The notes under the pieces were generated by a model. The model was not told the origin of the DNA, did no database searches, and was given only the letters and a program-made list of their open reading frames with translations. Shown in pieces: positions 13,565 to 28,545 of a DNA stretch of 28,545 nucleotides (position 1 is the first letter of the stretch; each line of letters starts with the position of its first letter). The DNA is taken from contig NZ_JAYKGW010000034.1 in the NCBI RefSeq assembly GCF_035285525.1, positions 1-28,545 on the forward strand, given 5' to 3'. The translations under genes were made by a program, and so were the position numbers. This DNA is from Okeania sp. Its GTDB lineage: Bacteria > Cyanobacteriota > Cyanobacteriia > Cyanobacteriales > Microcoleaceae.

Positions 13565-15313
13565 TTAAATATTAACTGCCGATACTTGTTCATCAAAAGG
13601 AATTTTAGGAAAGTTCGGCAAATCTACTGCTGCTGATAAGTTTTGTTTTTCTGGTACTTCAGGTACAATTTCTTCTTCAAAAAATTCAGGCTCAAATACA
13701 GGTGAATCCCAAGTTGGTAAATGTAGCTTATTACCTACTAATGTTGTCTCTTCGACATCTTGCTCCACTTCCTCTACCATTTCAGAAGACTCATCTGCAT
13801 TTATTTCAGGATTTATATCTTTTTCTAGTATAGGTTGATACTCACAAACATTCCACTTTCCTGTAGAGATGTTCCATGATATACGCTCTTGTTTAATCCC
13901 TTTATTTGATTCCTCAGACAAATTCTCTACTTTTTTAGATTCTTCCATAACCTTATTTTCGACCAATTTTTCCCTTTCTTTTTGTTGACTTTTTCCTTTA
14001 GGTAAATCATTTTCTATAACTAAATACTCTTCTGCTTCTGTATACTGTAAAGTAGTATCTTGTGGCGATACTTTTTCTGCTAATTCATAATCAGGAACTT
14101 CACCTATTCTACTAAATAAAGGTAGACTAGGATTTAATATAGTCTCACTAACCTCAGTAAAAAATTCATACTCAGAAGTATTTTCTGGTGATGATGATAC
14201 TTCTTGTGGTTTAGTCAAACCTTGAGGTAAATCTAATTTATTTTCCCAATTAATATTAGTAGAATTCGTTTCTTTTTTGTCAAAAATAGATTCTTCTACT
14301 TGTTTATTTTTTATCTTTGGAGACCAAGGTTTAACTGGTTCAGAATTGATCAGAGGTATTTTTTTTGTGTTAGTCTGAAGGAAAGAATTTTCTTGCTTAA
14401 AAGTTTCAGATTTTGAGCTTAATTCAGATGTTTGAAATGTAGATTTTTCTTCTTCTAAAAGTTCAGATTTTGAACTTAATTCAGATGTTTGAACTGGATT
14501 GTTTACAGCTTTTTCAATTGTTTGATTTACCCTATCTATCTTTTCTGGAATTTCCAGATTTCTTGCCAAAGCAGCTTTGAACTGTAAAGTTTGTTGTTGC
14601 TGTCGATATAGTCTGTTTCGCAACTCTCGGCAACTATTTTCTAACTGTTTAAGATGATAACTTTGTTGATTGTAAGATTGTTTAGTTAAAGCACATTCTC
14701 TTTCCATTTGTGCCTGTTGTTGTTGACTATTTTGCCACTTATTTGTTAAAGACTCAACTAAAACCTCTTGACGCTGAATAATTTTATTACATAACTCTAA
14801 CTTGTAAAATAAACGAGTTACCTGTTGTTGAGTTGCTGCTAGTTCTTTAGTTCTTTCTTCTACCAACTTTTCTTGATTTTCTAGAGTTTTTTGACATTCT
14901 TCTAAAGAGGTTTCTAATTCTGTAACTCGGTTTACCAGTTCGCGGTTACATTCATGCAAAGCTTCCATAAGACTGGGAGCTTCTAGTTCTTCAGTGGAGT
15001 CTTTTTTCAAAACTGATTTAACCCCTACAACTTCCTGAGACTTTCTTTGAGGTTGATTTTGATTAGGTAATTTTAAATCTTTCACTTCTGATGAAGTTGT
15101 TTTTGATACTGGAATTGAATCTACACTCATAGCATTAGGAAAATTAACGGTCTCCCACTCATCGTTCTCTAGAGATGTGCGTTTTTCTGGAGCTATATTT
15201 TCTTCAATTTTGTCCAGTTGATAAGTGTAGTCCAGTTTTTGGTGATTTACTGGATTATTTGTTTCTGGGAAGTTCTGGTTTCCAGGAAGTTCAGCTTCTG
15301 GCATGGCTTTCAC
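13565..15313 (-). CDS. Large (582 aa) coiled-coil-rich hypothetical protein with an acidic low-complexity C-terminal half
   Basis: A long heptad-like Q/E/L-rich segment (LMEALHECNRELVNRVTELETSLEECQKTLENQEKLVEERTKELAATQQQV...RELRNRLYRQQQQTLQFKAALA). An internal ~20-aa duplication QTSELSSKSELLEEEKSTF / QTSELSSKSETFKQENSFL is visible as a ~60-bp DNA repeat at about 14395-14500. Confidence 0.7.
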   Translation of the reverse strand: MKAMPEAELPGNQNFPETNNPVNHQKLDYTYQLDKIEENIAPEKRTSLENDEWETVNFPNAMSVDSIPVSKTTSSEVKDLKLPNQNQPQRKSQEVVGVKSVLKKDSTEELEAPSLMEALHECNRELVNRVTELETSLEECQKTLENQEKLVEERTKELAATQQQVTRLFYKLELCNKIIQRQEVLVESLTNKWQNSQQQQAQMERECALTKQSYNQQSYHLKQLENSCRELRNRLYRQQQQTLQFKAALARNLEIPEKIDRVNQTIEKAVNNPVQTSELSSKSELLEEEKSTFQTSELSSKSETFKQENSFLQTNTKKIPLINSEPVKPWSPKIKNKQVEESIFDKKETNSTNINWENKLDLPQGLTKPQEVSSSPENTSEYEFFTEVSETILNPSLPLFSRIGEVPDYELAEKVSPQDTTLQYTEAEEYLVIENDLPKGKSQQKEREKLVENKVMEESKKVENLSEESNKGIKQERISWNISTGKWNVCEYQPILEKDINPEINADESSEMVEEVEQDVEETTLVGNKLHLPTWDSPVFEPEFFEEEIVPEVPEKQNLSAAVDLPNFPKIPFDEQVSAVNI

Positions 15314-15831: not shown

Positions 15832-17718
15832 ATGCAAAATACCTTTTCCGGAACCAAAATATTATTACTAATCTTTTATATTTTCCCAGTATTATTACTT
15901 CTCTGGTTTCTAGGTAATTTTAGTGTCAATGTTCCCTATTGGGATCAATGGAGATTAACCTCTATATTTGAGCGAGTTGCTGAAGGGAATGCTACCTTTT
16001 TTGACTTTTTTACAGTACACGGACATCACAGAATATTAATACCTAAATTAATTATTACTGCTTTAGCTTTTGCGACTAAATGGAATACTCAAGCGGAAAT
16101 AATTTGTAGTGTTATTTTTGTCATCATCACATTTTTTACTATCTACAAAATAGCCGAAATTCAATTTAAAAGTCAAAACCAAAATATTCTACATATAGCA
16201 AATATTTTAAGTTGTCTATTTTTATTTTCTTTAGTGCAACATCAGAACTGGTTATGGGGATTTACCATATTTTGGTTTCTGACAAACTTATGTTTAATAG
16301 TGGCAGTATATTTTATTTACGCTTTAGAGAATTTATCAGCAAAAACTAGAATATTTATAGCAGCAATATTTTGTTTAATTGGAAGTTTTACTCTAATCCA
16401 AGGATTACTTTCTTGGCTAGTTTTAATTCCGTTAATATTATCTATAGAAGGGAAAGTAAAACAAAAAATTAGTAGGCTAAGTATCTGGATTTTGCTATTT
16501 ATAATTTCATGTATTGTCTACGCAATTAACTTTAATCCAATTCGAGAACCTAAACCATTTTTATTTACAGAAAAACCTTTTTTGATTATAAATTACTTTT
16601 TAGCAGTTCTCGGTTTACCTTTAGTGAGACTTCCCATTCTGGCAATTTTAACCGGATTAATATTATTGTCTGGTTTCCTATTTTTTACATATTACTTTCT
16701 CAGGAAAATTTTGTTTCAAAAAGAAAGTCAAGAATTAGGAAGAAAAAGTTATGGAGCAGAAACAATGAGTAGGCAATTTAGAGGTAAAATAATTTCTATT
16801 CCAGAAACTTTAGATGCACTTTTATTAACAAATTTAGACTTTTCTTCAAAGGCAACTATTCCTTGGTTAACAATAGGTACATTTTCTCTAATTTCTGCTG
16901 TATCTATTTCTGTAGGTAGAGCAGAATATGGAATTGAAAATGCTATGATTTCTTCCCGATATACAACTACGTCAATATTATTAATTATTTCTCTAATTTA
17001 TCTTCTGGCTTTGTTTGTACAAGAGCAACAAAAACAAAAATATTTATCAATATATAAAATTTTAGCTGCCCTAATGACAGGAATTATAATGATTAATTCA
17101 GTATCTGTTGTGCGGAATATAAAATTAAGTTTTCCCTACATGGAAAGTCGGAAAGAATGTCTAGAAATCATTAACTATTTAGCAGATTCAGAATTTATCA
17201 AAACATCTCCAGATAGTTGTTTGGTATTAATGAATGGCAAAACTTGGTTGGTCAGACAAGGTGCAGAAATTATGGCAAAATTAGGATGGCGAGAATTTCC
17301 TCAAAATCTGGAATTTATCCAACAACCAAAACAAAATTATGGTTATTTAGATAATCCTCAAACAAGTGCAAAACCTCTAATTATTAAAGGTGATGAAAGT
17401 CTAAGTTTGGGAGGTTGGGCAATTAGACCAGATAGAAAAAAACAACCTAATTTAGTCTTGTTTTCTTCTGGTGAGAATGAATATTTTTTTGCTAATGCTA
17501 TTGTTAATTTAGAGAGTAATGATATTGCTACAATTATGAAGTCGAAAATTTATAGTAGAGCCAGATGGAAAGTAAAATTTTTAGCCAAATCTTTACCTGT
17601 GGGAGAAACTGTTATTAAGGCTTGGGTTTATAATTCTAACAAACAAGAATTTGTCAAATTAAATGATGAATTAAAACTTAGAGTAGAAGGGAGTTCAGAA
17701 GATAATAATAACTTCTAA
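15832..17718 (+). CDS. Polytopic membrane protein (about 12 or more TM segments) with a C-terminal soluble domain; putative GT-C-type glycosyltransferase, paralogue of 22717-24507
   Basis: Strongly hydrophobic N-terminal ~450 aa. An acidic/aromatic motif follows TM1 (VPYWDQW). It shares blocks with the second membrane protein: HHRILIPKLIITAL / EHFVLIPAIIYAL, QHQNWLWG / AAHNWMRG, YGIENAMISSRYTT / FGIEQAIASRYAT. The function is inferred, not recognised. Confidence 0.72.
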   Translation: MQNTFSGTKILLLIFYIFPVLLLLWFLGNFSVNVPYWDQWRLTSIFERVAEGNATFFDFFTVHGHHRILIPKLIITALAFATKWNTQAEIICSVIFVIITFFTIYKIAEIQFKSQNQNILHIANILSCLFLFSLVQHQNWLWGFTIFWFLTNLCLIVAVYFIYALENLSAKTRIFIAAIFCLIGSFTLIQGLLSWLVLIPLILSIEGKVKQKISRLSIWILLFIISCIVYAINFNPIREPKPFLFTEKPFLIINYFLAVLGLPLVRLPILAILTGLILLSGFLFFTYYFLRKILFQKESQELGRKSYGAETMSRQFRGKIISIPETLDALLLTNLDFSSKATIPWLTIGTFSLISAVSISVGRAEYGIENAMISSRYTTTSILLIISLIYLLALFVQEQQKQKYLSIYKILAALMTGIIMINSVSVVRNIKLSFPYMESRKECLEIINYLADSEFIKTSPDSCLVLMNGKTWLVRQGAEIMAKLGWREFPQNLEFIQQPKQNYGYLDNPQTSAKPLIIKGDESLSLGGWAIRPDRKKQPNLVLFSSGENEYFFANAIVNLESNDIATIMKSKIYSRARWKVKFLAKSLPVGETVIKAWVYNSNKQEFVKLNDELKLRVEGSSEDNNNF

Positions 17719-22716: not shown

Positions 22717-24507
22717 TTGCGATTTATGTTAATCAAAAAAAAGTCAAAGATTACTTTTCTAATTATCACTACCATAGCAATTTTACTCCCAGCTTTCTAT
22801 ATACTTTTTATGATATCGAAAGCAGGAGAACTACTAAATTTTGATTATTGGTGGATGATTAAAAATATCTATTCTATAGATGGTTTTTCCAATAATATTT
22901 TTGACTGGATGTTTCGCGCCAACGAACATTTTGTCTTAATTCCTGCCATAATTTATGCCCTAAATATTATTCTTACCAAAGGTTCCAATATTGGGTTGTG
23001 TCTAGCGACATTTTTCCTAGCTTTTATTCAAGGAATTTTCTTAATTATATTAGTACCCAATACTCTCAAAAAATATCCGCCGATACTTTTATTATTAATT
23101 TTATTCATATCAATTTTTAACTTTACTCCCGCTGCTGCTCATAACTGGATGCGCGGATATAGTGGAGTACATTGGGTAATTGCTAATTTATTTGTTATTG
23201 CCTCAATATTTTGTGTTAAAAAATTACTAGAATCTCAACAAAATAGATTTGTTATTGCCAGTATAATATTCGGAATTTTAGGATGTATTAGTTATAGTAC
23301 CGCTCTAGGAGTTTTCCCGATATTATGTGCAGTTGCTATTCTCTATAAGTTGCCAAAAAAACTTACTATCTCTTATGTATTTGTTTCTGTTTTAGTAATA
23401 GGAACTTATTTCTTTACTTACACAACACCATCTCATCATCCGTCGTTATCTAAACTAAATTTTATTAATATAATTGCCTATGTTCCTGTTTATCTAGGAG
23501 CAATTTTTACTCATAATATTCCCATCGCTTCCGCAATAGGTTGGATAGGATTAATTTTAACAGGAATATTTTTTATTTATTGGTTATTTCTATCTTATCC
23601 GCAAAATTGGTTTCCTTGGTTATCCATAATAATTTATACTTTTGGAACTGCTTTAATGGCAGCAGTTAGTCGTTCTGGTTTTGGAATAGAACAAGCGATC
23701 GCTTCTCGTTATGCAACTCTACCTTCTCTATTTTGGTTAAGTCTAATTATCCTAATTTTTCTATGGTTAGAAAAACAGCAACTTCCCCCCAGAAAACAAT
23801 GGTATTTTGTTATGCCATTGGTGACAGTTTTAACAGTTTTAACTATATCAATGTATCAAGTAGGAACGGCAACTTTTAGAGAAATTGCTCATCGGGCAAC
23901 TTTTCAACCTTTAGTAGCATTATCGTTACAATTAGGAATTTCCGATCCGACTTTAATTAAGGAAAAAGTTGGCAACCGTCCTGCTGCTTTTTTAGGATTA
24001 GTTGATGCTTTAAAAGCTGATGGTTTAGTACCTTTTCATAGAGATATAAAACAGAATAATTTTTGTGCTAGTTTGGGTGAGAAAATTGACTCTAATTTAT
24101 TAAGTACTAAACTGCCAGAAAATTTTCAGGGATATTTTGATAATGTGACTAAATTTTCTCCGACTACAGCTAGAGTGAATGGATGGGTGAGTCAAGTTAA
24201 AGGTCAAAATTCAAAGGTCAAAAGTGAAGATAATTTTCCAATTAAATGTATTGTGATTTTGAATCAAGAAAATGTAGTTAAAGGTTTTGGGATGTTAGGT
24301 TTTCCTCGTGCTGATGTAGCAGAACTTTTAGGAGCAGAATATGAATTTTCAGGTTGGAAAGGATATATTGAAGTCAATGGTCAAAGGTCAAAAATCAACA
24401 GTGAAGAAAATATTTCAATCTCAGATAATGAAGTTTTAACAGCTTATGTGAAGTTGAAAAATCGCCAAAGTTGGATAGCTTTAACTAATCAATATAATTT
24501 TGATTAA
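22717..24507 (+). CDS. Polytopic membrane protein with C-terminal soluble domain; putative GT-C-type glycosyltransferase, paralogue of 15832-17718
   Basis: Multiple hydrophobic segments. The motif FDYWW follows TM1, and blocks are shared with the first paralogue (see that entry). The ORF-track start at 22717 is TTG. The ATG at 22726 (MLIKKKSK) is the more likely start. Confidence 0.72.
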   Translation: MRFMLIKKKSKITFLIITTIAILLPAFYILFMISKAGELLNFDYWWMIKNIYSIDGFSNNIFDWMFRANEHFVLIPAIIYALNIILTKGSNIGLCLATFFLAFIQGIFLIILVPNTLKKYPPILLLLILFISIFNFTPAAAHNWMRGYSGVHWVIANLFVIASIFCVKKLLESQQNRFVIASIIFGILGCISYSTALGVFPILCAVAILYKLPKKLTISYVFVSVLVIGTYFFTYTTPSHHPSLSKLNFINIIAYVPVYLGAIFTHNIPIASAIGWIGLILTGIFFIYWLFLSYPQNWFPWLSIIIYTFGTALMAAVSRSGFGIEQAIASRYATLPSLFWLSLIILIFLWLEKQQLPPRKQWYFVMPLVTVLTVLTISMYQVGTATFREIAHRATFQPLVALSLQLGISDPTLIKEKVGNRPAAFLGLVDALKADGLVPFHRDIKQNNFCASLGEKIDSNLLSTKLPENFQGYFDNVTKFSPTTARVNGWVSQVKGQNSKVKSEDNFPIKCIVILNQENVVKGFGMLGFPRADVAELLGAEYEFSGWKGYIEVNGQRSKINSEENISISDNEVLTAYVKLKNRQSWIALTNQYNFD

Positions 24508-26100: not shown

Positions 26101-28365
26101 CTAATTAACATTAGTCAAACTTTGGAACTTACCAGTAAACCTATTAAAGAATAACTCTAAAACCGTCCGTTTACCAACATTAATATTAGAGTTAATTGCC
26201 ATACCATTCTGCAAACCAATTTCCAGGTCATTCTCGTGACCCAAAACAAAAGTTTGCCTTTCTAATTCAATTTTAGTTTCAAAAGAAAAATAAGCTCTTC
26301 CTTCTTCTTGACTTGGAGGAATAGCATCATTACTAATAAAAACAACCTCCCCTGTTGCAGTACCAAATTCATTAGCAGGTAAAGCTTCAACTTGTACTTC
26401 TACAGGTACACAGTCTACATCTTTTAAGCCTAACTTTTCCCGATTTTCTCTCAGTTCCGGACAAACACATTTCTTGCCCGGTTCACATTGAATAACCTCC
26501 CCACCAGCCAACTCTTGTTCGTGATAAAGTTCCAATTTTTTGCGTTTATCATTCAAAGCCTTTAACACCAAAGCAACATCTTTATTCTGAATATAAACGA
26601 CAGCTTCTAAACCTTCATCATCATCCAAAACTGTTAGTAAAGGTTGAGTTTGTTGCGCTTCAAAAGAAGCATCCTCACATCTTTGTGGTTGAATATCTCC
26701 TGGTTGCAAAACTTCTTTAATGACATATTGACAAATAGGGTCTGTATTTATATCTAGAGAAGACTCTTCTTTAGTTGTCGGTTGTAAATCAAAAATTACC
26801 CCAGAAACTGGGGATTTTAAAACTTGATTATCACGGGCTTCTTCTAACTTTTCTATCTGAGCATTAACCTCAGTTAGTCGCTTATTATTGTCTAGTTGTA
26901 AACGAGTAAATTGAGAATCTATTCTAGCAATTTCTCTACCTTCATTTTCGGCAGTTCTAGCATAAAGTTCTCTTGCCCAAGCATCTCTAGTATTTTTTAA
27001 TTGTTCCTTAGTTCTCCTAATAGATACAATTAAACGTTGTTGTTCTAACTTAGCTCTTTGAACTTCTGCTTCACGGGCTTTAACTTCTCCTGCCCTGGCA
27101 TTAATCTCAGCTTGCCGAGAATTAATTTCTCCTTTTCTAGAATTAATTTCTCCTTCTAAAGTATTAATATTTGCTAATTGAGAATTAACCTCTCCTTGTC
27201 TAGCATTAATATCAGCCAACCGAGAATTAATTTCTCCTTTTCTAGTATTAATTTCTCCTTTTCTAGAATTAATTTCTCCTAATCTGGTATTAATTTCTCC
27301 TGCCCTAGACTGTATCTGGTCTTGCTGTCTTAACATCTCACTCTCACCCCGAAACACTTCTTGTTCCTGACGTTTTTTTTGCAATTCAGCGATCGCTCCT
27401 TCTTCTACCAAAGGAGATATTTGCTCCAAAATTCCTTGGTTAGAATTTAACACCTTACCCGACTTTTCTAACTGCCCTTTAGCTAATTCTAATTGTTCCT
27501 TAGAATACTTTAATTGTTCTTGAGAATATTCTAATTGCGCCCTAGTATTATTCAATTGTTCCCTAGTATTATTAAGTTGTTCCCTAGCAAATTTTAGTTG
27601 TTCTTGTGCAGTTTTTAATTGGTCATTAGCATAAACTCGCTGTTGCTCAGTATTTCTTAATTGTTGTCTAGAAAACTCTAATTGTTGTCTAGAATATTGC
27701 AATTGGTCTTGGGCTACTCTTAACTGTTCTTTAGCAGCTTCCTCCTGTTCTTTTGCTTGTTCAAGTTGTTTTTCTAGCTCTCTGATTTGTAATTCTACAG
27801 TACCCACACGAGAATTATATTCAGCTTTATAATTGACATATAATCCTTGTAAACTTGGGTCAATATTGACAAAACCACCCCTGTTTAAATAAAGTTCATT
27901 AATTAGAGCGCGATAGGCTTGATTTTCTGATATTCTTGTTTGCCTTTCTTGAGCAAGTTTCTGTAAATCTGGTGGTAAATCTGTGGGAACTTTGCCATCC
28001 AATACTTCTTGGTAAAACTTGTTTTCTCTTTTAATAGTTTCTCTTAATTTTATGGCAGAACCTAAGTCTGCACTAGGAACAGTAGGATTAAAAGTTAATA
28101 ATGGTTGATTCTTTTCCACGCGATCGCCACTTTCTACATGAAGTCTAACCACATTCCCACTGGTAGGAGCTTGGACATCTATAGAACCATCCTTCAGTTC
28201 TAATTTACCTATTGCGGGTATAGCTTGGTCTATCTGAGCAAAATAAGCCCAAATTACTGCTGAACTGGTCATTAACATAATCATCCAGAGAAATAGTCTA
28301 GATAGTATGGCTGGTTTCTCTAGAATTACTGGTTGTTCGCTTAGTGATAGAGATTGGTCTTGCAT
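26101..28365 (-). CDS. HlyD-family membrane-fusion/periplasmic adaptor protein with a greatly extended repeat-built coiled-coil and a Cys-containing insert
   Basis: N-terminal TM LFLWMIMLMTSSAVIWAYF. First lipoyl half VQAPTSGNVVRLHVESGDRVEKNQPLLTF and second half LKSPVSGVIFDL. C-terminal beta-barrel/MP-like region. About 350 aa of coiled coil lie in between. Six Cys are found in the C-terminal third. Confidence 0.88.
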   Translation of the reverse strand: MQDQSLSLSEQPVILEKPAILSRLFLWMIMLMTSSAVIWAYFAQIDQAIPAIGKLELKDGSIDVQAPTSGNVVRLHVESGDRVEKNQPLLTFNPTVPSADLGSAIKLRETIKRENKFYQEVLDGKVPTDLPPDLQKLAQERQTRISENQAYRALINELYLNRGGFVNIDPSLQGLYVNYKAEYNSRVGTVELQIRELEKQLEQAKEQEEAAKEQLRVAQDQLQYSRQQLEFSRQQLRNTEQQRVYANDQLKTAQEQLKFAREQLNNTREQLNNTRAQLEYSQEQLKYSKEQLELAKGQLEKSGKVLNSNQGILEQISPLVEEGAIAELQKKRQEQEVFRGESEMLRQQDQIQSRAGEINTRLGEINSRKGEINTRKGEINSRLADINARQGEVNSQLANINTLEGEINSRKGEINSRQAEINARAGEVKAREAEVQRAKLEQQRLIVSIRRTKEQLKNTRDAWARELYARTAENEGREIARIDSQFTRLQLDNNKRLTEVNAQIEKLEEARDNQVLKSPVSGVIFDLQPTTKEESSLDINTDPICQYVIKEVLQPGDIQPQRCEDASFEAQQTQPLLTVLDDDEGLEAVVYIQNKDVALVLKALNDKRKKLELYHEQELAGGEVIQCEPGKKCVCPELRENREKLGLKDVDCVPVEVQVEALPANEFGTATGEVVFISNDAIPPSQEEGRAYFSFETKIELERQTFVLGHENDLEIGLQNGMAINSNINVGKRTVLELFFNRFTGKFQSLTNVN
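27058..27309 (-). repeat. 12 tandem 21-bp units encoding heptads (SRAGEIN TRLGEIN SRKGEIN TRKGEIN SRLADIN ARQGEVN SQLANIN TLEGEIN SRKGEIN SRQAEIN ARAGEVK AREAEVQ)
   Basis: Plus-strand units of the form attaatttctccttttctaga, several nearly identical, in frame with the HlyD CDS. Confidence 0.93.
27457..27729 (-). repeat. 13 tandem 21-bp units encoding heptads (EQLRVAQ DQLQYSR QQLEFSR QQLRNTE QQRVYAN DQLKTAQ EQLKFAR EQLNNTR EQLNNTR AQLEYSQ EQLKYSK EQLELAK GQLEKSG)
   Basis: The period-21 register was read in both the DNA and the protein, in frame with the HlyD CDS. Confidence 0.93.
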
Positions 28366-28415
28366 TTGATTATAATTTAGAATGTAGAATTTATAATTTA
28401 GAATTCTGACTCTTC

Positions 28416-28480
28416 AAAAAGAGGGCGGGTTTAGATAAATCTGAGATTAAACAGAGAAATTTCTGCTCAAACCCGCCCCT
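28416..28480 (-). terminator. GC-rich hairpin followed by U5 on the minus strand, ~50 nt upstream of the HlyD start. It is either the terminator of an upstream gene or an attenuator.
   Basis: Minus-strand RNA: aGGGGCGGGTTT (28480-28469), 36-nt loop, AAACCCGCCCtc (28432-21), then TTTTT (28420-16). A third complementary copy lies at 28511-28522. Confidence 0.4.
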
Positions 28481-28545
28481 ACATAATTATTAATTATCCA
28501 TTGAAACAGTAGGGGCGGGTTTCACAATACCGCTAACGGTTTTCA

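What the first reader, a model, noticed from the sequence alone, without database searches (positions are those of the whole stretch)
26101..28365. Giant HlyD-family adaptor whose hairpin arms are built from matched arrays of 13 and 12 heptad (21-bp) repeats, plus a six-cysteine insert
HlyD-type adaptors are typically several hundred residues shorter than this 754-aa protein. The excess is two tandem arrays in the coiled-coil region. The first is 13 x 21 bp (27457-27729, xQLxxxx heptads). The second is 12 x 21 bp (27058-27309, GEIN-type heptads, several units nearly identical at the DNA level). They are separated by a 49-aa tip segment. The two arms of an antiparallel alpha-hairpin must stay equal in length, so near-equal repeat numbers of two unrelated repeat types imply co-ordinated expansion. 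The expansion would lengthen the hairpin by roughly 12-13 heptads beyond the ordinary coiled coil. That may serve to span the thick cyanobacterial periplasm/peptidoglycan or to reach a distant outer-membrane partner. The near-identity of some units suggests ongoing slippage, meaning length variation. The C-terminal third also contains six Cys (ICQY, QRCED, IQCEPGKKCVCPEL, VDCVPV), which suggests periplasmic disulfides in an inserted subdomain. The partner ABC/MFS and TolC-like genes are not in the window.
Basis: partly seen in the sequence, partly recalled or inferred. Interest (0 to 1): 0.65.

Follow-up and report, generated by a model that had tools for sequence, protein, structure and literature searches.

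The report
Extra-long secretion adaptor with matched repeat arms
This gene encodes the periplasmic bridge protein of a cyanobacterial type I secretion system; its coiled-coil hairpin is predicted to be about 28 nm long, more than twice the longest solved example, and across related species its two arms always gain or lose seven-residue repeats in equal numbers.

Summary
ORF 26101-28365(-) encodes a 754-aa HlyD-family adaptor with 13 xQLxxxx heptads (aa 213-303), 12 xRxGEIN heptads (aa 353-436), a 49-aa spacer and six Cys.

AlphaFold2 predicts two continuous helices, 170-321 and 327-517, with pLDDT above 90 and a turn at 322-326. The two arrays face each other. The return helix of 191 residues corresponds to about 28 nm.

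In about 160 orthologues from Oscillatoriales, the arm lengths fall into six classes (53/45 to 102/94 residues). The difference between the arms is always 8 residues. At least 8 independent changes were matched in both arms, and there is one real exception. So coordinated expansion is real.

The window protein is the extreme of a family in which repeat-built hairpins are normal, so it is not a singular oddity. Heptad indels in both helices are already a stated principle for adaptors and chemoreceptors.

In orthologues a HlyB-type ABC exporter lies directly upstream in 61 of 61 loci. It has a cNMP-binding domain and a C39-like domain without the catalytic Cys. In the window that position lies beyond 28545.

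The six Cys are invariant and sit in two family-specific inserts, but their fold and any disulfides remain unresolved. The idea that the hairpin spans a thick envelope is plausible but untested.

Verdict: new variant of a known kind, moderate interest.

The parts
26101..28365 (-). Complete gene for a 754-aa HlyD-family type I secretion periplasmic adaptor (membrane fusion protein)
   Evidence: ORF list. TIGR01843 type_I_hlyD 3.9e-34 and Pfam HlyD_3 32.9 bits against a cut-off of 22.2. Family profile vs E. coli HlyD 8DCK/7SGR E=1e-12.
28240..28311 (-). Single N-terminal transmembrane helix (aa 19-42), preceded by a short cytoplasmic segment (aa 1-18)
   Evidence: AF2 helix H19-42. This stretch aligns to the HlyD TM region, residues 58-80 of 8DCK_C.
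28081..28182 (-). N-terminal half of the lipoyl domain (aa 62-95)
   Evidence: Pfam HlyD_3, Biotin_lipoyl_2 and Biotin_lipoyl hits at aa 62-95.
27403..27858 (-). Outgoing arm of the alpha-hairpin, one continuous predicted helix (aa 170-321). Helices aa 97-122 and 132-159 precede it.
   Evidence: AF2 secondary structure with pLDDT 92-97 over most of the helix.
27457..27729 (-). Array 1: 13 x 21 bp, xQLxx(A/S/T)x heptads (aa 213-303), lying 21-111 residues before the turn
   Evidence: The number of units varies among orthologues in step with array 2.
27388..27423 (-). Hairpin tip: RLS-like motif Q315-x3-L319-x6-A326 (R315 in most family members), with the predicted turn at aa 322-326 (EGAIA). 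L319 and G323 are invariant.
   Evidence: AF2 loop 322-326. Invariant columns. RLS motif definition from PMC3391258.
26815..27387 (-). Return arm of the hairpin, one continuous predicted helix of 191 residues (aa 327-517), about 28 nm
   Evidence: AF2. The best Foldseek matches are long antiparallel coiled coils: Rad50, SMC arms and chemoreceptors.
27058..27309 (-). Array 2: 12 x 21 bp, (S/T/A)Rx(G/A)E(I/V)N heptads (aa 353-436), lying 29-112 residues after the turn and therefore opposite array 1
26785..26820 (-). C-terminal half of the lipoyl domain, motif LKSPVSGVIFDL (aa 516-527)
   Evidence: Corresponds by motif to HlyD IRAPVSGKVQQL. P519 and G522 are invariant.
26641..26784 (-). Insert 1 relative to E. 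coli HlyD and to the sister families (aa 528-575), carrying invariant C545 and C563
   Evidence: Not matched in the alignment to HlyD or in the nearest relatives outside the family. The Cys are invariant. AF2 confidence is low.
26410..26565 (-). Insert 2 (aa 601-652): a helix followed by a Cys cluster with invariant C627, C633, C635 and C652
   Evidence: pLDDT is 77-85 in the fragment model. No fold match.
26131..26409 (-). C-terminal beta-barrel part (aa 653-745)
   Evidence: Aligns to HlyD residues 388-467. Precomputed PF26002 Beta-barrel_AprE hit. AF2 strands.

Best explanation
The gene encodes the periplasmic adaptor (HlyD type) of a type I secretion system. Its ABC exporter is of the HlyB type, with an extra N-terminal cNMP-binding domain and a C39-like domain that lacks the catalytic Cys. 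That exporter gene lies just upstream, beyond the end of the window.

The protein is anchored in the inner membrane by one helix. Its lipoyl and beta-barrel domains sit on the transporter. By analogy with HlyD, MacA and EmrA, six copies would pack their alpha-hairpins into a tube whose tips dock on a TolC-like outer-membrane duct.

Here the hairpin is about 27 heptads per helix, or about 28 nm. About 13 heptad layers (about 13 nm) come from two tandem 21-bp arrays of different sequence that face each other. Leu of arm 1 is level with Ile/Val of arm 2, with small residues (A/S/T in arm 1, G/A in arm 2) at a second conserved position of each heptad.

The tip and the lipoyl junction are both fixed. 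A unit gained or lost by replication slippage in one array therefore mis-registers the hairpin, and only lineages with a matching change in the other array persist. This explains the constant 8-residue difference between the arms.

The exporter has no periplasmic domain, so the adaptor alone must reach the outer-membrane duct. I infer that hairpin length is set by the unusually wide envelope of these large filamentous cyanobacteria.

Shown: family membership, the repeats, the predicted hairpin, the co-variation and the operon partner in orthologues. Inferred: the hexameric tube, TolC docking, the slippage-plus-selection mechanism and the envelope-width rationale.
For: Family membership.

Hairpin geometry: AF2 helices 170-321 and 327-517 with pLDDT above 90 and a turn at 322-326. 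Foldseek hits to antiparallel coiled coils. The L/I register at i+j=650 puts the turn centre at 325.

Co-variation: among 120 database homologues, 119 have N1-N2=8, in classes 53/45, 60/52, 81/73, 88/80, 95/87 and 102/94, with a constant 42-residue tip. The same holds in 44 genome loci, apart from one that contains Ns. Fitch parsimony on a tree built from the non-repeat parts needs at least 9 changes, 8 of them matched in both arms. These include three separate origins of the 102/94 state: the window, P0018 and L021. In L021 the change arose by 14-aa duplications in both arms.

Recent duplication: DNA units identical at 21/21, 20/21 and 19/21 positions.

Partner: an ABC ORF lies directly upstream on the same strand in 61/61 loci. 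In the Okeania orthologue it scores 720 bits on TIGR01846 HlyB and has cNMP_binding, Peptidase_C39, ABC_membrane and ABC_tran domains. Ala occupies the catalytic-Cys position and the His is retained.

Scale: the 127 A, 11-heptad hairpin of EmrA is called 'exceptionally long' in PMC4158417, which tabulates hairpins of 27-67 A for RND and ABC (MacA) adaptors and notes that the MFS transporter EmrB has no periplasmic extension. Oscillatoriales envelopes measure 45-69 nm, with 14-18 nm of peptidoglycan (PMC9326267). The alpha-domain spans 425 residues here, against a family median of 340 and a median of 245 in more distant relatives.
Against: - The score against TIGR01843 (118 bits) is below NCBI's cut-off of 208.65.
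- No ABC or TolC gene is in the window itself.
- AF2 was run on a monomer. Overall pTM is 0.36 and I could not inspect coordinates, so pairing of the arms rests on secondary structure, fold matches and co-variation.
- No data link hairpin length to measured envelope width. Lyngbya, Limnoraphis and Capilliphycus carry the shortest version, which I know to be large, thick-walled forms (own knowledge, not tested here), so there is no obvious size correlation.
- One database protein (P0110, 60/38) has unmatched arms and could not be traced to a contig.
- The tip has Q rather than R at the first RLS position in the window.
Confidence: 0.65

Rival explanations
1. The structure is as described, but the length has no adaptive meaning. 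The arrays are slippage-prone DNA, and the only selection is that the two arms stay equal. Under this view the length classes are neutral drift, and any length above some minimum works, for example because the tube can tilt, bend or interdigitate with the outer-membrane duct.
For: There are many length classes, and the 102/94 state arose three times. Repeat units are nearly identical at the DNA level. There is no evident relation between length class and organism type. Large clades are fixed at a single class, with 60/52 in 83 of 120.
Against: Even the shortest family member has an alpha-domain of about 325 residues, well above the median of 245 in more distant relatives. This suggests a raised minimum. 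A sister lineage expanded independently with different repeats (P0123), which hints at a common pressure.
Confidence: 0.25
2. The long coiled coil does not extend as a 28-nm rod in vivo. It folds back into a four-helix bundle, as in CusB, or lies along the membrane or peptidoglycan, so it serves as something other than a longer reach, such as a chaperone cage or scaffold.
For: CusB folds its hairpin back (PMC4446572). Gly in most arm-2 heptads is unusual for a stable coiled coil. AF2 pTM is low.
Against: AF2 gives uninterrupted helices of 152 and 191 residues at pLDDT above 90, with no internal break. The strict equality of arm changes and the in-register L/I layers fit simple two-helix pairing along the whole length.
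Confidence: 0.07
3. The system is a peptidase-containing ABC exporter (PCAT or bacteriocin type, like HetC) that exports a small processed peptide, not an RTX-type protein secretion system.
For: The partner has the HetC-like cNMP + C39 + ABC architecture. The upstream PpiC-like gene weakly matches TIGR04500, a 'putative peptide maturation system protein' (8.6e-11, far below its cut-off). The adaptor has a weak NHLM_micro_HlyD hit.
Against: The partner's best model by far is TIGR01846 HlyB, at 720 bits against 429 for NHLM_micro_ABC1. Its C39-like domain has Ala where PCAT1 has the catalytic Cys, as in the non-proteolytic C39-like domain of HlyB.
Confidence: 0.15

Closest known systems
E. coli HlyD (type I secretion adaptor; PDB 5C21/5C22, 7SGR, 8DCK)
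   Same: It shares the N-terminal TM anchor, the lipoyl domain split by an alpha-helical hairpin, the C-terminal beta-barrel, and the operon with a HlyB-type ABC exporter that has a non-catalytic C39-like domain.
   Different: The protein is 754 aa against 478 aa. The hairpin domain is about 425 residues against roughly 200, giving about 28 nm against about 11.5 nm (the HlyD figure is from my own knowledge of Kim et al. 2016). The extra length comes from tandem heptad arrays. There are two Cys-bearing inserts around the beta-barrel. The partner carries an added cNMP-binding domain. The NCBIfam score is below the family cut-off.
Aquifex aeolicus EmrA (MFS-pump adaptor, PDB 4TKO)
   Same: It has a long two-stranded antiparallel coiled coil serving a transporter without a periplasmic domain. 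The adaptor must cover the whole distance to TolC (PMC4158417).
   Different: EmrA has 11 heptads per helix (127 A) and is described as exceptionally long. The window protein has about 27 heptads in the return helix. EmrA's coil is not built from recent tandem repeats.
Chemoreceptor (MCP) cytoplasmic hairpins, heptad classes 24H-44H (Alexander and Zhulin)
   Same: Hairpin length evolves by symmetric seven-residue insertions or deletions in both arms (PMC5907407). Foldseek also pairs the model with MCP hairpins.
   Different: This is an unrelated protein family in a different compartment. MCP classes are ancient and stable. Here the changes are recent, occur between close relatives, and arise by tandem duplication in two distinct repeat arrays.
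General rule for periplasmic adaptor hairpins (Symmons et al. 2015)
   Same: [quoted passage not shown]
   Different: That statement compares distant adaptors. The present family gives a graded natural series of six lengths within one orthologous group, with DNA-level evidence of how the changes arise.
HetC of Nostoc PCC 7120 (cNMP + C39 + ABC exporter)
   Same: The partner ABC of the orthologues has the same three-part N-terminal architecture.
   Different: HetC has an active Cys protease and no adjacent adaptor gene (PMC10986499). Here the catalytic Cys is replaced by Ala and an adaptor gene always follows.

Membership tests
HlyD-family type I secretion adaptor (TIGR01843 / Pfam HlyD clan) | Significant match to the family models | tested here: inconclusive
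   TIGR01843 gives E=3.9e-34 and 118 bits in 3 stretches, below the curated cut-off of 208.65. Pfam HlyD_3 gives 32.9 bits, above its cut-off of 22.2. A family profile hits E. coli HlyD at 1e-12.
HlyD-family type I secretion adaptor | Short cytoplasmic N-terminus and a single TM helix | tested here: met
   AF2 helix 19-42 aligns with the HlyD TM region.
HlyD-family type I secretion adaptor | Lipoyl domain split by an alpha-helical hairpin, followed by a beta-barrel domain and no membrane-proximal domain | tested here: met
   Lipoyl N-half at aa 62-95. Helices 97-517. PVSG motif at aa 516-527. The beta-barrel part aligns to HlyD 388-467. PF26002 hit precomputed.
HlyD-family type I secretion adaptor | RLS/RLT tip motif RxxxLxxxxxx(S/T) for TolC docking | tested here: inconclusive
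   The spacing is kept across the predicted turn. In the window it reads Q315-L319-A326, and in most family members R315-L319-A326. L319 is invariant. The literature accepts deviations in the HlyD family.
HlyD-family type I secretion adaptor | Encoded next to a HlyB-type ABC exporter | not testable with these tools
   The window ends 180 nt upstream of the start codon. In orthologues the feature is met in 61/61 loci.
HlyD-family type I secretion adaptor | Hexamer that docks on a TolC-family outer-membrane duct and is needed for substrate secretion | not testable with these tools
   No multimer modelling and no TolC gene are available in the window or the loci examined.
Peptidase-containing ABC exporter (PCAT) systems | Catalytic Cys/His dyad in the C39 domain of the partner exporter | tested here: not met
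   Tested on the Okeania orthologue's partner: Ala aligns with the catalytic Cys position of PCAT1, and the His is retained.
DevB-type ABC-exporter adaptors of cyanobacteria (TIGR02971) | Match to the DevB family model above its cut-off | tested here: not met
   E=2.7e-5 and 23.7 bits against a cut-off of 129.

The most novel reading that the evidence does not exclude
The hairpin acts as an evolvable molecular ruler. Paired slippage in two complementary heptad arrays lets each Oscillatoriales lineage retune the reach of its type I secretion tube in steps of about 1 nm, from about 21 to 28 nm, to match its own inner-to-outer-membrane distance. The family would then be a natural length series, and envelope width could be read from sequence. 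Removing or adding matched heptad pairs would test directly how trans-envelope machines cope with periplasm width.
Probability: 0.3. Interest if true: 0.65.

Novelty: new variant of a known kind. Interest (0 to 1): 0.45.

Why it matters
Tripartite exporters must bridge two membranes, yet almost all structural knowledge comes from proteobacteria with a periplasm of about 20-25 nm. This family shows how the same machine is stretched. The predicted hairpin is more than twice as long as any solved adaptor, and it is built modularly from heptads.

The strict arm-for-arm co-variation is sequence-only evidence for antiparallel pairing along the whole rod. It also shows compensatory evolution at the level of repeat number.

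The family offers a ready-made graded series for testing whether adaptor length is matched to envelope width in thick-walled cyanobacteria. On the practical side, many members are mis-annotated as 'chromosome partitioning protein ParA' or 'myosin-like'. They should be renamed as type I secretion adaptors.

Tried and rejected
- An exact look-up of the window protein and of the odd P0110 in the assembly index found nothing. The window's own upstream sequence and the provenance of the one unmatched-arm protein therefore stay unknown.
- Foldseek on the full model was dominated by generic coiled coils and did not retrieve HlyD. The profile-sequence search did.
- I modelled the C-terminal 250 residues separately to resolve the Cys inserts. 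The result had mean pLDDT 59. Insert 2 was moderately confident and insert 1 was poor. No significant PDB fold match appeared; the best was the EmrA beta-barrel at E=0.23. No statement about disulfide pairing is therefore possible.
- I considered that the Gly-rich GEIN heptads might form a beta structure, given weak Pfam DUF4097 and FecR hits. I rejected this because AF2 predicts helix at pLDDT above 90 and the register matches arm 1.
- I considered that L024 carried an interrupted gene. It is only a 208-nt duplication of the 5' end upstream of an intact 726-aa gene.
- L083's deviant arm count is discounted because the ORF contains masked Ns.
- I tried to test the envelope-width idea through the organisms of shorter relatives. 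The named ones are Oscillatoriales with alpha-domain spans of 313-335 residues and a Rivularia with 248. This is suggestive, but there are too few to count as a test.
- Literature searches found no description of this family or of repeat-array hairpins in cyanobacterial adaptors. The library is incomplete, so this is not proof of absence.
Full report
**1. The observation**

The minus-strand ORF 26101..28365 starts with ATG, encodes 754 aa, and is the only ORF of at least 60 aa across that stretch. Cutting the translation at the coordinates given yields 13 heptads at aa 213-303, all with Q at position 2. Twelve have L at position 3, and position 6 is A, S or T. It also yields 12 heptads at aa 353-436 of the form (S/T/A)-R-x-(G/A)-E-(I/V)-N. 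The spacer is 49 residues, and Cys lie at 545, 563, 627, 633, 635 and 652.

Tandem Repeats Finder finds the period-21 arrays independently. Identity of the DNA with itself at a 21-nt offset is 0.61 and 0.69 in the two arrays. It is 0.30-0.37 in most of the rest of the gene, including the non-repeat helix 440-517, and 0.43 in the short helix 170-212. Three units of array 2 are identical or differ at one base, and two units of array 1 differ at two bases.

**2. What the protein is**

- NCBIfam's type_I_hlyD model matches at 3.9e-34 in three pieces. The score is below the curated cut-off, as expected when a 422-position model is interrupted by long inserts.
- Pfam HlyD_3 and the lipoyl models hit aa 62-95.
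- A profile of 58 family members finds E. coli HlyD (8DCK, 7SGR) at 1e-12. The match runs through the TM/lipoyl N-half and the C-terminal beta-barrel. Serratia LipC is also found.
- AlphaFold2 with that alignment predicts a TM helix (19-42), short helices 97-122 and 132-159, one uninterrupted helix 170-321, a five-residue turn at 322-326, and one uninterrupted helix 327-517. pLDDT is mostly above 90 along the coil. The lipoyl and barrel parts are modelled poorly.
- The best structural neighbours are long antiparallel coiled coils: Rad50, SMC arms and chemoreceptors.
- At about 1.48 A per residue, the 191-residue return helix is about 28 nm, or about 27 heptads. The adaptor hairpin described in the literature as 'exceptionally long', Aquifex EmrA, has 11 heptads per helix and measures 127 A. 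AcrA, MexA and MacA measure 47-67 A (PMC4158417).

**3. The two arrays face each other**

Array 1 lies 21-111 residues before the predicted turn, and array 2 lies 29-112 residues after it. The conserved Leu of arm 1 (215+7k) and the conserved Ile/Val of arm 2 (435-7k) satisfy i+j=650 in 13 successive layers. This places the fold point at residue 325, inside the AF2 turn. The apparent 13-versus-12 mismatch disappears because a degenerate unit with I351 precedes array 2.

The 49-aa 'tip segment' is therefore not a separate element. It is helix-turn-helix, with an RLS-like spacing across the turn: Q315-L319-A326 in the window and R315 in most relatives, with L319 and G323 invariant.

**4.

The protein search returned 178 homologues, all from filamentous Oscillatoriales. 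They include Okeania, Trichodesmium MAGs, Microcoleus, Tychonema, Kamptonema, Lyngbya, Limnoraphis and Capilliphycus. Lengths are 637-754 aa, and many are mis-named 'ParA'.

I measured arm 1 between invariant Q203 and V305, and arm 2 between invariant Q347 and E441. The 120 listed proteins fall into these classes:

| Arm 1 / arm 2 (residues) | Number of proteins |
|---|---|
| 53/45 | 16 |
| 60/52 | 83 |
| 81/73 | 2 |
| 88/80 | 15 |
| 95/87 | 1 |
| 102/94 | 2 |

Every step is a whole number of heptads, the tip is always 42 residues, and arm 1 minus arm 2 is 8 in 119 of 120 proteins.

Forty-four further genes taken from genome contigs give the same result. The only deviant contains masked bases. 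A neighbour-joining tree from the non-repeat parts requires at least nine changes of state, eight of them equal in both arms. The longest state arose three times: in the window, in P0018 and in L021. In L021 a 14-residue duplication is visible in each arm relative to its close relatives.

The single unmatched protein (P0110, 60/38) could not be traced to a contig. It may be an assembly collapse or a genuine unbalanced allele.

Co-ordinated change of two unrelated repeat arrays is thus established. Close relatives differ in length (754, 740 and 726 aa at 80-84% identity), which fits continuing slippage.

**5. How unusual is it?**

The window protein is the long extreme, not a singular case. All family members carry 5-12 GEIN-type heptads.

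Scanning 1.8 billion representatives with the C-terminal third shows that the whole family collapses into one 50% cluster. The next relatives are about 40% identical and lack the Cys-bearing stretch.

The span between the two lipoyl halves is 425 residues here, the maximum seen. The family median is 340, and the median in the more distant relatives is 245. One distant protein (P0123) reaches 423 with quite different repeats: a 14-residue unit in arm 1 and REAELLN heptads in arm 2. Named members of the nearest outside clusters are also Oscillatoriales, with spans of 313-335. A Rivularia protein has 248.

The principle that adaptor hairpins lengthen by heptads in both helices is already stated in reviews (PMC4446572). 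Symmetric heptad indels define chemoreceptor classes (PMC5907407). What is new is the magnitude, the tandem-array mode, and the fine-grained series within one orthologous group.

**6. Genomic context and likely system**

The window ends 180 nt upstream of the start codon. Downstream, the neighbour is a convergent GT2 glycosyltransferase.

In Okeania and Capilliphycus the gene is preceded by a PpiC-like gene and by an exporter of about 1000 aa with cNMP_binding, Peptidase_C39, ABC_membrane and ABC_tran domains. An ABC ORF lies directly upstream on the same strand in 61 of 61 loci that have enough flank. That exporter scores 720 bits on the HlyB model, whose cut-off is 725.6. This is far above its scores on the bacteriocin-type models.

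In an alignment with PCAT1, the exporter has Ala at the catalytic Cys position and retains the His. It is therefore a non-proteolytic C39-like domain, as in HlyB. The added cNMP domain recalls HetC, where it binds ppGpp (PMC10986499).

I conclude that this is a HlyB/HlyD-type secretion system, probably nucleotide-regulated. Its substrate and outer-membrane partner are unknown.

**7. Mechanism proposed**

Shown: the domain order, the predicted hairpin, the facing arrays, their co-variation, and the partner gene in orthologues.

Inferred from HlyD, MacA and EmrA biology:
- Six hairpins form a tube that meets a TolC-like duct tip to tip.
- A HlyB-type exporter has no periplasmic domain, so the adaptor must cover the whole distance. 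The same argument was made for EmrA.
- Five of the seven positions of the arm-2 heptad and three of arm 1 are conserved. This is more than a two-helix coil needs. It fits helices that also contact neighbours and line a lumen.
- Slippage in one 21-bp array changes one arm by about 1 nm. The tip and the lipoyl junction are fixed, so such alleles are mis-registered and persist only when the other array changes equally.

The functional reason for the length is the weakest step. Measured envelopes of Oscillatoriales are 45-69 nm thick with 14-18 nm of peptidoglycan (PMC9326267). A 28-nm hairpin, plus the membrane-proximal domains, plus a TolC barrel of about 10 nm (own knowledge), would fit that distance. 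However, I have no width data for the species concerned. Lyngbya, Limnoraphis and Capilliphycus carry the shortest version, so neutral length drift above a raised minimum remains a serious rival.

**8. The cysteines**

All six Cys are invariant in the 58-sequence alignment, and 118 of 120 homologues have exactly six. They lie in two inserts relative to E. coli HlyD and to the nearest outside relatives, which mostly have no Cys. These are aa 528-575 (C545, C563) and aa 601-652 (C627, C633, C635, C652).

The region is periplasmic by topology, so disulfides are plausible. The full model and a separate model of the C-terminal 250 residues give only low to moderate confidence, and no known fold is matched. 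The subdomain's structure and role remain open.

**9. Verdict**

The claim of exceptionality needs tempering, because repeat-built long hairpins are the norm in this cyanobacterial family. The functional rationale and the disulfide subdomain are untested.

This is a new variant of a known kind of protein. It is of moderate interest, mainly as a natural length series for studying how trans-envelope machines match envelope width.

Noticed in passing
window 28469-28482 and 28509-28522: A perfect 14-bp inverted repeat (AAACCCGCCCCTAC / GTAGGGGCGGGTTT) separated by 26 nt lies in the 180 nt upstream of the adaptor gene. It occurs nowhere else in the window, and 0.03 matches are expected by chance. 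A partial third copy (AAACCCGCCCTC) lies nearer the gene. It could be a terminator of the upstream gene, a regulatory hairpin or a small mobile repeat.
   Followed up: partly
window 28370-28405: A heptanucleotide tandem repeat (TTAGAAT x 5.1, 82% matches) lies immediately upstream of the start codon.
   Followed up: no
window 15832-17718 (+) and 22717-24507 (+); L001 14628-16511; L002 12623-14392: A polytopic membrane protein of about 590-630 aa, with no Pfam or NCBIfam hit, stays linked to the adaptor gene. It is 75% identical to the Okeania neighbour and 38% identical to the Capilliphycus neighbour. A second, similar-looking copy is present in the window. In all three genomes it sits among rmlC/rmlD, methyltransferase and glycosyltransferase genes. 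This hints at a conserved link between this secretion system and a rhamnose-containing surface glycan or a glycosylated surface protein.
   Followed up: partly
database proteins P0003, P0008, P0018, P0020 and others: Dozens of NCBI records of this family are named 'chromosome partitioning protein ParA', and one JGI record is named 'myosin-like domain' protein. These mis-annotations are evidently driven by the coiled coil.
   Followed up: yes
P0123 (648 aa, NCBI contig of 6954 nt, unnamed): A distant relative has its own hairpin expansion. It carries about five copies of a 14-residue, proline-containing unit (RIETARRQIPTAQx) in arm 1, opposite about 14 REAELLN-type heptads in arm 2. A proline in every second heptad of a supposed coiled coil is odd.
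   Followed up: no
L024 6001-6208 (Trichodesmium sp. sediment MAG): A 208-nt direct duplication that includes the first 77 nt of the adaptor gene precedes an intact 726-aa copy.
   Followed up: yes
L001 9520-9879 (Okeania sp. SIO1I7): A gene for a 23S rRNA intervening-sequence protein (PF05635) is inserted between the ABC exporter and the adaptor gene in this Okeania genome. It is absent from the Capilliphycus locus.
   Followed up: no
window 13565-15313 (-): A 582-aa ORF has no Pfam hit and only a weak SMC-like coiled-coil match. It is another long coiled-coil protein in the same neighbourhood.
   Followed up: no
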